Below are positions 14,101-17,100 of a stretch of DNA of 64,000 nt, one piece after another. The stretch's first letter is position 1. Each line of letters opens with the position of its first letter. The position numbers are program-made. Where the stretch lies: the NCBI GenBank assembly GCA_000002445.1, contig CP000070.1, forward strand, positions 1,600,001 through 1,664,000, read 5' to 3'. The stretch is from Trypanosoma brucei. Taxonomy: Eukaryota.

Positions 14101-17100
14101 GCGTACGACAATATAAGCCGCTGATATGAGTGAGGGAACGTTATGCAGCGTACTCGGTAGACTCCAAGTACTGTAATTTACTTCCCTTTCAAGTGGTTCG
14201 TACGAATAATTTGTGTCACGGCATCTTATTCATTTTTGTTTTCAGATATTAATAATTCCACGAGTATCTTTCTGCCGCTCTGTAATGTTCTTTTGTTTTC
14301 TCTTAATAAGCTGTTGGTTGTCATTTTCGTTTACGTACCTAAATATATATATATATATGTATACTCATGTGTACCTATTTTACACTATAATGAAAAATGC
14401 AACGGTGTGACATATATCACACATAGCCAACAAAACATTTTCGGCACATATAACCTCTTTAAAGAGAATAAAACATTTAAAAATAAATACACGAAGACTA
14501 TATGCGGGGACCCTACGGCGCACCAGCGTAACTACAGTATTGACAATATATTATCAACTGCCACTCTTCACCCGTGGAAACACCATGTAATCCTTTTCTT
14601 CTTGCGGTGGGAGAGAGGAGAGTGCAGAACAACACAGGCACCCCAACACCGTTGATCCGTAGTGCTACCTATCTCGTCTTCATATCTTTACTGCTTGTTA
14701 TAATTTTGTCTTTTTCACCTTTTTTTTTCGGCTGCGCTGTCACGGTTTTATAAATGTCCATTGCAAAATAGTTGCTCTCAAGACACACATCAATAGCATT
14801 ATATCCGCCCAATACCTCTTCTTTCATTCTCCCAAAACTTAATGCTTTCATTTCTCCCTTTTCGACTTATTGAACCTTTGAACAATACCACAGACTAACA
14901 GCAATAAACAAGCACGCAGTCACGTAAAGGAACCTAACATTTTAGGGAAACAAAAATTATCTGGCAGCACACTGGGTGAAACATCGGGAGGAATACAACT
15001 GAGCGTACTGTACAAAACATTGCCATGAGCGCACCCGTCGACAACGTCGTGGTGGAGCGGCTCTCTACAGCCAACCAAAAACCGGTCAGTGAGCCCCGCC
15101 GTTTCGCCACTTTGGTTCTCGGCGTCTTTTGTTGTATGTGCACATCCTTCATGTATGCCTTCAATCTTATATCTGGAGCAATGCAGGAACGTTACGACCT
15201 CACACAGCGAGATCTCTCCACCATCACTACTGTTGGTATTGTAGTTGGATATTTCTTGCTGCCTTATGGTTTCATCTATGACTATCTGGGGCCGAGACCT
15301 GTATTTGTAATATCAATGACAGTTTTCTGCCTGGGTACGTTGCTTCTCGCACTGACATTCCAAGAAGTGATTGAAGGATCTGTTGTGAGACTCAGTGTCT
15401 ACAATGGTCTCATGGTATTGGGATGTATGTTGTTTGACTTGGGTGCCGTGGTAACAGTACTCAGCGTGTTTCCATCCAACCGTGGTGCCGTGATGGCCAT
15501 CATGAAGACATTTACGGGTCTTGGTTCCGCAATCGTCGGTTGTATACGACTAGGTTTCTTGAGTCAGAGTACCTCTGCTTATTTCTACTTCCTCATGTCG
15601 TTTGCCCTGGCCGCTGGCATCTTGGCTATTGCATTTCTGCGTCTGCCACCATTCCATTTGACGGGCTATCAGGAAAAGCACCTTGATGAAGAAGAGAAGG
15701 CACAGCTTCGCGTAACGAAGGGCGTGTACCTGAAGCAGAAGGCACCCATGTGGCGTTTCGTCTACGGTTTTGCTATTCTTTTGATTCTCATTGTGTTCCT
15801 CCCCCTGCAGGGATCACTGTCCGCCTATCTCAAACTCGGAAGCAACTTCAGGGTGGGGTTTGCACTCGTTGTTATCGCGTTGATCGTAATATTCCCTTTT
15901 ATGGCATTCCCACTTACTACCTTCGACGGCAAACGCCCACATGACGATTCTGACAGCAAAGCCAAAGAACACGTTGGAGCAGGTGATGAAGTTTCCGCGG
16001 CGGAAGATAAGGTAGTTGAGACTGATGTCGACTATATTGCTCCACAGTTCCAGGAAACATTTATCGCAGGATTGAAAACCGCACGGTTATGGTGCCTACT
16101 GTGGTCAGTTTTCTGTTGCGTTGGTGTGCACTATGTTGTCATCTACAATGCTCGTTTCATCTACACGGCACTGACCGGTGAGGCCCCTGAAGACGCGCTA
16201 AACACCCTCCTTACTGTTCTAAATGGTGTGGGTAGTGCTGTAGGACGACTTTGTATGAGTTACTTCGAAATCTGGTCGCAGAAGCGCCGTGCTGAAGATC
16301 GCGTCCCCATCACCATTGCGCTGTTTATCCCTTCGGTTTGTATCATCACCATGTTGACACTCTTCCTCACTCTCCCGAAGGCTGCATTACCTTTACCATA
16401 CTTCATCGCAGCGTTCTCAAATGGTTTCACAGCGGCGATTATTGCATTGGTAACGCGCACAATATTCGCCAAGGATCCTGCAAAGCATTACAACTTCTGC
16501 TATCTCGCCTCCGTGCTTTCAGCCATCTTCCTTAATCGTCTACTGTACGGTGAGTGGTACACGCAACAGGCCGATAAGTTGGGTCAGGATGTTTGCAAGA
16601 AGCGTGTTTGTGTGGTGATGCCGCTTGCATTTATGTTAGGTCTCGCCTTCCCAGCATTTGCTACTAGCACCTACTTGCATCTGCAGTACCGCCGCCTTTG
16701 CACGCTTGCGCTTGAGGAACGTCAGCGCATCCGGGAGGAGGAGCGTGTGCTAAATGAGTTGCCTTCTAACCCTATAGAGCCGACGGGGAATGCCGGTGAA
16801 CCTGCGCATCAACTCAAGTGAGTATGGAAGTTACTCGATTTTAAGCTGTGAGGTAATTTAAAAAAACGTGTTTATTTGTTATTTTTTTTTTTTGCGTGTA
16901 CAAAACGCCTTTAGTGTCTTGTGGTAATATCTTGTATCTCTTAATTATGCTAATATACTAAAAACCGTATTTCTTGTTCTTACCCACTGCGGGAAGTGGA
17001 CACTTGGATTAACAGTATCATAAGACAGAACTCTCTTTTTGATCCATGGTAAACTTCCCGCTACATTCTCTCATTTTCTCCGGGTGTGTATGTAGGGATT

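What the first reader, a model, noticed from the sequence alone, without database searches (positions are those of the whole stretch)
15025..16821. Mosaic transporter copy at the distal end of the array
The last transporter gene has A-type N- and C-termini. Internally it switches to B-type sequence (e.g. EIWSQKRRAEDRVPITIALFIPSV…) and to unique segments (RRFATLVLGVFCC; FCYLASVLSAIF; AFPAFATSTYLHLQYRRLCTL), so it is a recombinant paralogue. Mosaics may have altered substrate specificity while keeping the isoform-A tail, which in PAD-type proteins carries isoform-specific epitopes and regulation.
Basis: partly seen in the sequence, partly recalled or inferred. Interest (0 to 1): 0.5.

Follow-up and report, generated by a model that had tools for sequence, protein, structure and literature searches.

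The report
PAD8: known gene-conversion mosaic transporter
The last gene of this tandem array is PAD8 of Trypanosoma brucei, a membrane transporter gene that really is a patchwork of its neighbouring copies made by gene conversion, but this patchwork was already catalogued in 2007.

Summary
The window is Trypanosoma brucei brucei TREU927 chromosome 7. The ORF at 15025-16821 is exactly protein XP_846223/AAZ12664. It is the last gene of the PAD (Proteins Associated with Differentiation) transporter array, i.e. PAD8 (Tb927.7.6000).

PAD8 has A-type (PAD4/6) ends and a sharply bounded B-type (PAD5/7) tract at 16192-16410, with 0 mismatches to B and 24 to A. Sites that distinguish A from B fall in 51 runs against 132 expected (0 of 10,000 permutations).

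The two-parent picture is too simple. I resolve about ten segments whose nearest paralogue alternates between A, PAD1/2 and B. Synonymous sites follow the same tracts.

Independent assemblies of T. b. gambiense and T. equiperdum carry the same mosaic at 97% identity, with a few patches that differ between subspecies. This is therefore not an assembly artefact, and conversion is still going on.

Five of the six isoforms in the array are mosaics. Jackson (2007, BMC Evol Biol 7:54, Table S2) already lists copy 8 as recipient of conversion tracts at almost the same breakpoints.

Functional consequences for substrate specificity or regulation remain untested.

Verdict: real, correctly read in outline, already known, low interest.

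The parts
15025..16821 (+). PAD8 coding sequence (598 aa, MFS/Nodulin-like transporter), the mosaic copy
   Evidence: ORF. Exact match to T. b. brucei TREU927 XP_846223/AAZ12664/Q57VL1. Pfam MFS_1 2e-22 and Nodulin-like 4e-07. PAD8 = Tb927.7.6000 as last of eight genes.
15025..15105 (+). Segment 1: A-type (PAD4/6) N-terminal tail, aa 1-27
   Evidence: 0% mismatch to A, 7.4% to all other types; nearest = A in 1000/1000 bootstraps. In T. b. gambiense and T. equiperdum PAD8 this patch is non-A type.
15106..15256 (+). Segment 2: PAD2/PAD1-like but 9-11% diverged (TM1-TM2)
15257..15416 (+). Segment 3: A-type, 2.5% mismatch (TM2/3 to TM4)
   Evidence: Nearest = A in 998/1000 bootstraps
15417..15570 (+). 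Segment 4: PAD1-like, 11% mismatch (TM4-TM5). The T. b. gambiense orthologue is A-type here
   Evidence: Corresponds to Jackson 2007 event 381-546, donor 1 to recipient 8.
15571..15864 (+). Segment 5: A-like but 10% diverged (TM6, cytosolic helices, TM7). Contains a TREU927-specific PAD2/3-type micro-patch at 15780-15786
15865..16108 (+). Segment 6: A-type, identical to PAD6 (TM8 and the disordered hypervariable loop, aa 281-361)
   Evidence: 0% mismatch to A; 1000/1000 bootstraps. Loop disorder from the structure model.
16109..16184 (+). Segment 7: PAD2/PAD1-type (TM9)
   Evidence: 6.6-7.9% mismatch to PAD2/1 against 24-25% to A and B. Jackson 2007 event 1085-1137, donor 1 to 8.
16185..16410 (+). 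Segment 8: B-type (PAD5/7) tract with a perfectly B-identical core at 16192-16410 (TM10, loop, TM11; contains EIWSQKRRAEDRVPITIALFIPSV)
   Evidence: 0 mismatches to B and 24 to A over 219 nt. 1000/1000 bootstraps. 6 of 7 synonymous A/B codon differences are B-type. Jackson 2007 event 1205-1302, donor 5 or 7 to 8.
16411..16671 (+). Segment 9: PAD1-type, 5% mismatch (TM12-TM14). Includes the 'unique' FCYLASVLSAIF and AFPAFATSTYLHLQY strings and the TE>KK patch at 16598-16600 shared with PAD6
   Evidence: Jackson 2007 events 1391-1691 (donor 1 to 8) and 1626-1647 (donor 2 to 8).
16672..16821 (+). Segment 10: A-type C-terminal tail (aa 550-598) with two private residues, T560 and I584
   Evidence: 3 mismatches to A, 81 to B..
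13808..15024 (+). Upstream spacer of PAD8, the same type as the PAD5-to-PAD6 spacer
   Evidence: 98.4% identical to 7584-8812 over its full length
16822..17590 (+). A-type 3' flank of PAD8; array homology ends at about 17590
   Evidence: 16822-17134 is 97% identical to 4380-4692 and 10610-10915. 17183-17590 is 99% identical to 4808-5215, 11032-11439 and 1569-1972. No array homology beyond.
2583..4379 (+). PAD4 (A1), A-type paralogue
8813..10609 (+). PAD6 (A2), A-type paralogue. Shares TREU927-specific variants with PAD8
5826..7583 (+). PAD5 (B1), B-type paralogue
12050..13807 (+). PAD7 (B2), B-type paralogue
1..1050 (+). 3' part of PAD3, cut by the window start
   Evidence: C-terminus SRVSTEPIGVI equals that of T. 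b. gambiense PAD3

Best explanation
The ORF at 15025-16821 is PAD8 (Tb927.7.6000), the eighth and last gene of the PAD array on chromosome 7 of Trypanosoma brucei brucei TREU927. It encodes a 14-helix major-facilitator (Nodulin-like) membrane transporter. The family is described in the literature as surface carboxylate transporters that convey the citrate/cis-aconitate differentiation signal.

Its sequence is a patchwork produced by repeated, short-tract, non-reciprocal recombination (interlocus gene conversion) among the tandem copies. An A-like (PAD4/6) backbone sits in the 'A' slot of the two-gene A-B repeat, with A-type 5' spacer and 3' flank. It carries very recent A-identical tracts, one B-identical (PAD5/7) tract and several PAD1/PAD2-type tracts.

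Shown here: the tract structure, its statistical support, its presence in independent genomes, and patches that differ between subspecies.

Inferred: the mechanism (gene conversion between misaligned sister chromatids or homologues within the array) and the donor-to-recipient direction.

Not shown: any functional consequence. The most likely consequence is modest. PAD8 is a working paralogue whose helices TM10-TM11 carry the family-consensus motif that PAD4/6 have lost. Its C-terminal tail and 3' flank (about 770 bp of the spacer that follows PAD4 and PAD6) would give it PAD4/6-like epitopes and post-transcriptional regulation.
For: Identity:
- Exact-sequence look-up gives XP_846223/AAZ12664 of TREU927. 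The five copies carry consecutive accessions AAZ12660-12664.
- PAD1-PAD8 = Tb927.7.5930-6000.
- The array ends after this copy.

Family:
- Pfam MFS_1 and Nodulin-like.
- 139 kinetoplastid homologues, many named 'protein associated with differentiation'.
- AlphaFold model with pLDDT 86 and 14 long helices. Nearest solved folds are OxlT, DgoT and the lactate transporter SfMCT.

Mosaic:
- 51 runs against 132 expected, 0 of 10,000 permutations.
- Copying-model segments with 0-3 mismatches to one paralogue and 24-81 to another.
- The nearest paralogue switches A / PAD2 / A / PAD1 / A / A / PAD2 / B / PAD1 / A, with bootstrap support of 85-100% in eight of the ten segments. In the other two (82-232 and 1085-1160) the call is PAD2 or a PAD1/PAD2 tie, 61-71% for PAD2 alone.
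- Synonymous codons follow the tracts.

Not an artefact:
- T. b. gambiense DAL972 and T. equiperdum assemblies hold a last copy that is 97.3-97.4% identical with the same tracts.

Ongoing conversion:
- The 49 nucleotide differences between the TREU927 and gambiense PAD8 are clustered. Most swap one paralogue's state for another's: columns 60-66, 393-545, 756-762, 1574-1576 and 1692-1701.

Independent published analysis:
- GENECONV and SISCAN found copy 8 as recipient at 381-546, 1085-1137, 1205-1302, 1391-1691 and 1626-1647.
- PHI p<0.001 with 15 breakpoints for this array.
Against: - TREU927 PAD1, PAD2 and the 5' half of PAD3 lie outside the window. I used T. b. gambiense copies as proxies, so donor labels PAD1 versus PAD2 are approximate.
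- Several N-terminal segments are 9-11% diverged from every paralogue. These could be old PAD8-lineage sequence rather than converted tracts.
- The direction of transfer cannot be read from identity alone.
- The locus tag Tb927.7.6000 was not returned by a tool. It is inferred from gene order and consecutive accessions.
- No functional data for PAD8 were found.
Confidence: 0.9

Rival explanations
1. The direction is reversed for some tracts. PAD8 keeps older sequence and was the donor, so PAD5/7, PAD1 or PAD2 are the converted copies. In the B-type tract, the A-type copies are the ones that diverged.
For: In the tract 16185-16410 the B/PAD8/PAD3 protein sequence matches the consensus of 71 kinetoplastid homologues. 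The A type departs from it at near-invariant E424 and F434, so A is the derived state there. Jackson 2007 also lists events with copy 8 as donor: 8 to 1 at 1393-1477 and 8 to 2 at 1408-1479. With gambiense B as the target, the copying model picks PAD8 as its best donor at 1168-1383.
Against: PAD8 is identical to B at nucleotide level in that tract, while PAD1 and PAD2 differ by 6.6-7.5%. An exchange between B and PAD8 is therefore needed either way. Published donor/recipient calls make copy 8 the recipient in five of seven events that involve it.
Confidence: 0.3
2. Assembly artefact: reads from near-identical tandem copies were joined into a false chimera.
For: [quoted passage not shown] Read vouchers were checked only for chromosomes 9-11, not chromosome 7.
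Against: Two independent assemblies of other (sub)species contain a last copy with the same tract structure at 97% identity and the same flanks: DAL972 (L001/L002) and T. equiperdum (L003). The copies differ by 10-19% overall, far above the <5% where collapse is expected.
Confidence: 0.02
3. PAD8 is a third, independently diverged paralogue. The patches of identity reflect uneven selective constraint, not recombination.
For: The segments at 15106-15256, 15417-15570 and 15571-15864 are 9-11% diverged from every other copy. Sixteen residues are private to PAD8.
Against: Identity switches are abrupt: divergence from A goes from 0% to 23.7% at alignment column 1084/1085, and divergence from B from 25% to 0.9% at 1160/1161. 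Synonymous differences follow the tracts. Informative sites are clustered at z = -10.9.
Confidence: 0.05

Closest known systems
Array Tb61 (Tb927.7.5930-6000) in Jackson 2007, BMC Evol Biol 7:54 (PMC1855330), and array 61 in the T. b. gambiense genome paper (PMC2854126)
   Same: It is the same locus and the same phenomenon. Published conversion tracts with copy 8 as recipient (381-546, 1085-1137, 1205-1302, 1391-1691, 1626-1647) coincide with my segments 393-546, 1085-1160, 1161-1386 and 1387-1647. The array-wide recombination tests were significant.
   Different: Those papers predate or do not use the PAD names. They do not map tracts onto the protein fold. For this array they report six shared and no unique isoforms between subspecies. 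Here the orthologous PAD8 copies differ in clustered, paralogue-derived patches.
PAD1 and PAD2 of T. brucei (Dean et al. 2009, as summarised in PMC2921060 and PMC3827541)
   Same: Same gene family and array, and the same MFS/Nodulin-like architecture. PAD8 shares PAD1/2-type sequence in TM9 and TM12-TM14.
   Different: PAD1 and PAD2 have demonstrated stumpy-form expression and a role in citrate/cis-aconitate perception. In the papers I could read, PAD8 has only transcript data: stumpy-enriched in one study, near-constitutive in another. PAD8 has an A-type tail and 3' flank, not those of PAD1 or PAD2.
Other chimaeric tandem duplicates in T. brucei: the PGK array (middle copy a chimaera of its neighbours), the THT hexose transporter array, and TbrPDEB1/B2 GAF-A conversion
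   Same: Partial gene conversion between adjacent tandem paralogues creates isoforms that combine modules of their neighbours (PMC2689650 listed).
   Different: Those are two- or three-type systems with one main tract. PAD8 combines at least three donor types in about ten segments.
Solved MFS carboxylate transporters OxlT (8hpj/8hpk), DgoT (6e9n) and SfMCT (6g9x)
   Same: MFS fold. These are the best structural and sequence matches in the PDB (Foldseek E 1.6e-07 to 2e-06; profile E 3.4e-08 to 6g9x). All carry organic anions.
   Different: Only 13-16% identity. PAD8 has two extra central helices (242-294) and a disordered loop of about 50 residues. PAD8's substrate has not been measured.

Membership tests
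T. brucei PAD array, member PAD8 (Tb927.7.6000) | Sequence identical to the annotated TREU927 protein | tested here: met
   Exact look-up returns AAZ12664.1/XP_846223.1/Q57VL1, T. b. brucei TREU927, on a 2,205,233-bp contig.
T. brucei PAD array, member PAD8 (Tb927.7.6000) | Last (eighth) gene of the tandem array | tested here: met
   The copies carry consecutive accessions AAZ12660-12664 in window order. No PAD homology lies beyond 17590. In T. b. gambiense the orthologue is also last, after PAD1, PAD2, PAD3, A and B. Name-to-tag mapping comes from PMC2771046 and PMC2753553. The tag itself is inferred from order, not returned by a tool.
T. brucei PAD array, member PAD8 (Tb927.7.6000) | Carboxylate (citrate/cis-aconitate) transport and a role in differentiation signalling | not testable with these tools
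   Reported for the family and for PAD1/PAD2. I found nothing specific to PAD8.
Major facilitator superfamily / Nodulin-like | Significant match to the Pfam models above their curated cut-offs | tested here: met
   MFS_1 80 bits (cut-off 33.4); Nodulin-like 30.2 bits (cut-off 24.7).
Major facilitator superfamily / Nodulin-like | MFS fold of two six-helix bundles | tested here: met
   AlphaFold model with pLDDT 86.4 and pTM 0.85, arranged as 6 + 2 + 6 long helices. 257 PDB MFS-type matches at E<=0.001.
Interlocus gene-conversion mosaic (chimaeric tandem duplicate) | Informative sites clustered into tracts beyond chance | tested here: met
   51 runs against 132 expected, 0 of 10,000 permutations. 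Longest B run 24 against a permutation maximum of 13.
Interlocus gene-conversion mosaic (chimaeric tandem duplicate) | Nearest paralogue changes along the gene with statistical support | tested here: met
   Ten segments. Bootstrap support for the nearest paralogue is 85-100% in eight of them; the other two are PAD2 or PAD1/PAD2 ties.
Interlocus gene-conversion mosaic (chimaeric tandem duplicate) | The pattern holds at synonymous sites, so it is not protein-level convergence | tested here: met
   All synonymous A/B codon differences are A-type in the three cleanest A tracts (columns 1-81, 841-1084, 1648-1758; 6 of 7 in 233-392), and 6 of 7 are B-type in the B tract.
Interlocus gene-conversion mosaic (chimaeric tandem duplicate) | Reproduced in independent assemblies, so it is not a mis-assembly | tested here: met
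   T. b. gambiense PAD8 is 97.3% identical and the T. equiperdum last copy 97.4%, with the same tracts.
Interlocus gene-conversion mosaic (chimaeric tandem duplicate) | Donor and recipient identified for each tract | tested here: inconclusive
   Identity alone does not give direction. The published assignments make copy 8 mostly the recipient. The family consensus shows that A is the derived type in the B tract.

The most novel reading that the evidence does not exclude
The tracts that differ between subspecies could make PAD8 functionally different between T. brucei subspecies, for example in which carboxylates are sensed or in when the protein is made. Examples are TM4-TM5, which is PAD1-type in TREU927 and T. 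equiperdum but A-type in T. b. gambiense, and the N-terminal tail, which is A-type only in TREU927. PAD8 also keeps the family-consensus TM10-loop-TM11 motif that PAD4/6 have lost. On this reading gene conversion in the array would be a source of adaptive variation in differentiation-signal perception, not just neutral homogenisation.
Probability: 0.08. Interest if true: 0.5.

Novelty: already known. Interest (0 to 1): 0.15.

Why it matters
The PAD array is central to how African trypanosomes sense entry into the tsetse fly. Knowing exactly which stretches of PAD8 are shared with PAD1/2, PAD4/6 and PAD5/7 matters in practice.

- Probes, RNAi fragments, CRISPR guides, peptide antibodies and short-read mapping aimed at one isoform will cross-react wherever a converted tract lies. 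An example is the A-type tail and the A-type spacer sequence that follows the PAD8 stop codon for about 770 bp.
- Only a handful of private positions distinguish PAD8.

As biology it is a confirmed instance of a process already documented for this very array and for about half of T. brucei tandem arrays. It does not open a new question.

Tried and rejected
- Dean et al. 2009 (Nature), the primary PAD paper, is not held under the PMC id or the DOI I tried. Family function is therefore cited from reviews and transcriptome papers.
- The look-up of encoding contigs has no record for the TREU927 proteins. TREU927 PAD1, PAD2 and the 5' half of PAD3 could not be fetched, so I used the T. b. gambiense copies from L002 as proxies.
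- A neighbour-joining bootstrap with midpoint rooting crashed on zero-distance segments. I replaced it with a bootstrap of the nearest paralogue.
- The T. equiperdum last copy has three 1-bp deletions, all in G runs. I treat these as probable long-read errors rather than a pseudogene, and used it only at nucleotide level. That assembly's array is also collapsed or rearranged.
- A two-donor (A, B only) copying model gives 5 segments at a cost of 149. Adding PAD1-3 lowers the cost to 120 with 9 segments. I therefore rejected the simple A x B recombinant model.
- I did not attempt dN/dS between orthologues, because most differences are imported paralogue states.
- No tRNA genes occur in the window.
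Full report
**What is at the coordinates.** An intact 598-codon ORF lies at 15025-16821 on the + strand. It is the last of six related ORFs in the window: 1-1050 (cut by the window start), 2583-4379, 5826-7583, 8813-10609, 12050-13807 and 15025-16821. The copies fall into an A type (2583, 8813; 99.2% identical to each other) and a B type (5826, 12050; 99.7%). The two types are 81% identical.

**Origin and name.**
- An exact-sequence look-up identifies the last copy as AAZ12664/XP_846223/Q57VL1 of Trypanosoma brucei brucei TREU927, on a 2.2-Mb contig.
- The A and B copies are AAZ12660-12663, consecutive in window order.
- Two transcriptome papers give the naming PAD1 = Tb927.7.5930 through PAD8 = Tb927.7.6000.
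- Array homology stops about 770 bp after this gene.
- In T. b. gambiense the orthologue is also the last gene, after PAD1, PAD2, PAD3, an A copy and a B copy.
- The window therefore holds the 3' part of PAD3, then PAD4 (A), PAD5 (B), PAD6 (A), PAD7 (B) and PAD8. The locus tag is inferred from order and was not returned by a tool.

**Family and fold.**
- The protein matches Pfam MFS_1 and Nodulin-like above their cut-offs.
- It has 139 kinetoplastid homologues at E<=1e-30, many annotated as 'protein associated with differentiation'.
- An AlphaFold model built on 71 homologues is confident (pLDDT 86, pTM 0.85). It shows 6 + 2 + 6 long helices, a disordered loop at 306-329 and disordered termini.
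- The nearest solved structures are the MFS organic-anion carriers OxlT, DgoT and the lactate transporter SfMCT, at 13-16% identity.
- The literature describes the family as surface carboxylate transporters needed for perception of citrate/cis-aconitate, shown for PAD1 and PAD2.
- For PAD8 I found only transcript data: stumpy-enriched in one study and nearly constitutive in another.

**Is the mosaic real?**
- I took sites where A and B differ and PAD8 matches one of them (211 A, 95 B). They fall in 51 runs against 132 +/- 7.4 expected. None of 10,000 permutations gave as few. The longest B run is 24, against a permutation maximum of 13.
- A minimum-mismatch copying model finds sharply bounded tracts. 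Positions 16192-16410 have 0 mismatches to B and 24 to A. Positions 16672-16821 have 3 to A and 81 to B.
- Synonymous codon differences follow the same tracts, which excludes protein-level convergence.

**More than two parents.** I added PAD1, PAD2 and PAD3 from T. b. gambiense as proxies, because the TREU927 copies lie upstream of the window. This lowers the model cost and resolves about ten segments:

| Window coordinates | Nearest paralogue | Mismatch |
|---|---|---|
| 15025-15105 | A | 0% |
| 15106-15256 | PAD2/1-like | 9-11% |
| 15257-15416 | A | 2.5% |
| 15417-15570 | PAD1-like | 11% |
| 15571-15864 | A-like | 10% |
| 15865-16108 | A | 0% |
| 16109-16184 | PAD2/1 | 7-8% |
| 16185-16410 | B | 0.9% |
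| 16411-16671 | PAD1 | 5% |
| 16672-16821 | A | 2% |

Bootstrap support for the nearest paralogue is 85-100% in eight segments. The two short PAD2/1 segments are PAD2 or PAD1/PAD2 ties.

AFPAFATSTYLHLQYR is identical to PAD1 and PAD2. SVLSAIF is the PAD1/2/3 form. FCC is the PAD1/2 form. Only 16 of 598 residues occur in no paralogue, and 13 of these are shared with the gambiense orthologue.

**Flanks.** PAD8 sits in the 'A' slot of the A-B repeat.
- Its upstream spacer (13808-15024) is 98.4% identical to the PAD5-to-PAD6 spacer.
- Its downstream flank is 97-99% identical to the flank of PAD4 and PAD6 up to 17590, where the array ends.

**Not an artefact, and still active.**
- The last copy in T. 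b. gambiense DAL972 is 97.3% identical to PAD8 and the last copy in T. equiperdum is 97.4% identical. Both have the same tracts and the same downstream synteny.
- The 49 nucleotide differences between the TREU927 and gambiense PAD8 are clustered, and most exchange one paralogue's state for another's:
  - Columns 60-66 are A-type only in TREU927.
  - Columns 393-545 are A-type only in gambiense.
  - Columns 756-762 are PAD2/3-type only in TREU927.
  - Columns 1692-1701 shift the start of the A-type tail.
  - A three-base change (TE to KK, 16598-16600) is shared only by TREU927 PAD6 and PAD8.
- Short-tract exchange has therefore continued since the subspecies separated.
- The mosaic is not peculiar to the distal copy. 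In the complete gambiense set PAD1, PAD2, PAD3 and B are also mosaics of the others (4-9 segments). Only A is not.

**Already published.**
- Jackson (2007) analysed this array as 'Tb61 (Tb927.7.5930)'. Table S2 of that paper lists eleven conversion events.
- Five have copy 8 as recipient: 381-546 and 1085-1137 from copy 1, 1205-1302 from copy 5 or 7, 1391-1691 from copy 1, and 1626-1647 from copy 2. Two have copy 8 as donor.
- These breakpoints coincide with mine almost to the base.
- The T. b. gambiense genome paper reports PHI p<0.001 and 15 breakpoints for the same array.

**Mechanism and consequence.**
- The best explanation is interlocus gene conversion among misaligned tandem copies. This is inferred from the tract pattern and is the mechanism proposed in the literature for this array.
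- Direction is uncertain for individual tracts. In the B tract, the B/PAD8 protein sequence equals the family consensus, while the A type departs from it at near-invariant E424 and F434. A is therefore the derived form there.
- On the model, the B tract covers TM10, the following loop and TM11. The PAD1-type tract covers TM12-TM14. The A-identical tract covers TM8 and the disordered hypervariable loop.
- Whether any of this changes substrate range or regulation is untested.

**Verdict.** The recombinant interpretation is right in outline but incomplete, because there are at least three donor types and few truly unique residues. The phenomenon is already known for this exact gene.

Noticed in passing
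window 18587-20771 and 23569-25753: A 2,185-bp inverted repeat at 99.9% identity, with a 2.8-kb spacer (20772-23568). It lies between the + strand PAD array and a - strand gene array, that is at the convergent strand-switch region. Each arm carries the same 183-aa ORF (19358-19909 + and 24431-24982 -), which has no Pfam match. An inverted copy is also seen in the T. b. gambiense locus L001.
   Followed up: partly
window 26783-57273, - strand: Five tandem copies with a period of about 6.55 kb, encoding 1170-1270-aa receptor-type adenylate cyclases. Pfam matches are Peripla_BP_A-cyclase and Guanylate_cyc, so they are GRESAG4-like. Copies are 94-99% identical to each other, and the last is shorter (1170 aa).
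   Followed up: partly
window 59004-61292, - strand: A 762-aa ORF with no Pfam match.
   Followed up: no
window 3843-3884 and 10073-10114 (aa 421-434 of PAD4 and PAD6): The A-type copies replace two residues that are at least 90% conserved across 71 kinetoplastid homologues, E424 to A and F434 to Y. Both lie in the TM10-TM11 loop motif (KRRAEDR becomes KRPAADR). PAD8, PAD5/7 and PAD3 keep the consensus.
   Followed up: partly
window 10386-10388 (PAD6) and 16598-16600 (PAD8): The same three-base change (CCG to AGA, TE to KK) is present only in TREU927 PAD6 and PAD8. It is absent from PAD4, from every other paralogue and from the gambiense and equiperdum orthologues. This points to a very short conversion (80 bp or less) between non-adjacent copies after the subspecies split.
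   Followed up: partly
window 1051-2582 versus 7584-8812 and 13808-15024: PAD4 does not share the upstream spacer of PAD6 and PAD8. Only the last 60 bp before the ATG are common. The distal part of the PAD4 spacer (1569-1972) matches the A-to-B spacers instead. Spacer type and coding type are therefore uncoupled, as Jackson 2007 noted for this array.
   Followed up: partly
window 8012-8443 versus 14236-14655: The two B-to-A spacers differ by 12 bp in a TA-rich microsatellite, which reads YIYIYIYIYVY versus YIYIYVY in a spurious ORF. The recurring 108-143-aa ORFs in the spacers are repeated because the spacer is repeated and are not evidence of genes.
   Followed up: no
L003/L004 (T. equiperdum CM010678.1): The PAD array in this assembly looks rearranged. 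It has two 596-aa PAD1-tailed copies, the first of which is 100% identical to PAD8 over parts of the gene. It also has a frameshifted third copy with an A-type tail, one B copy, and an unannotated PAD8 with three 1-bp deletions in G runs. This could be real strain variation or long-read assembly error.
   Followed up: partly
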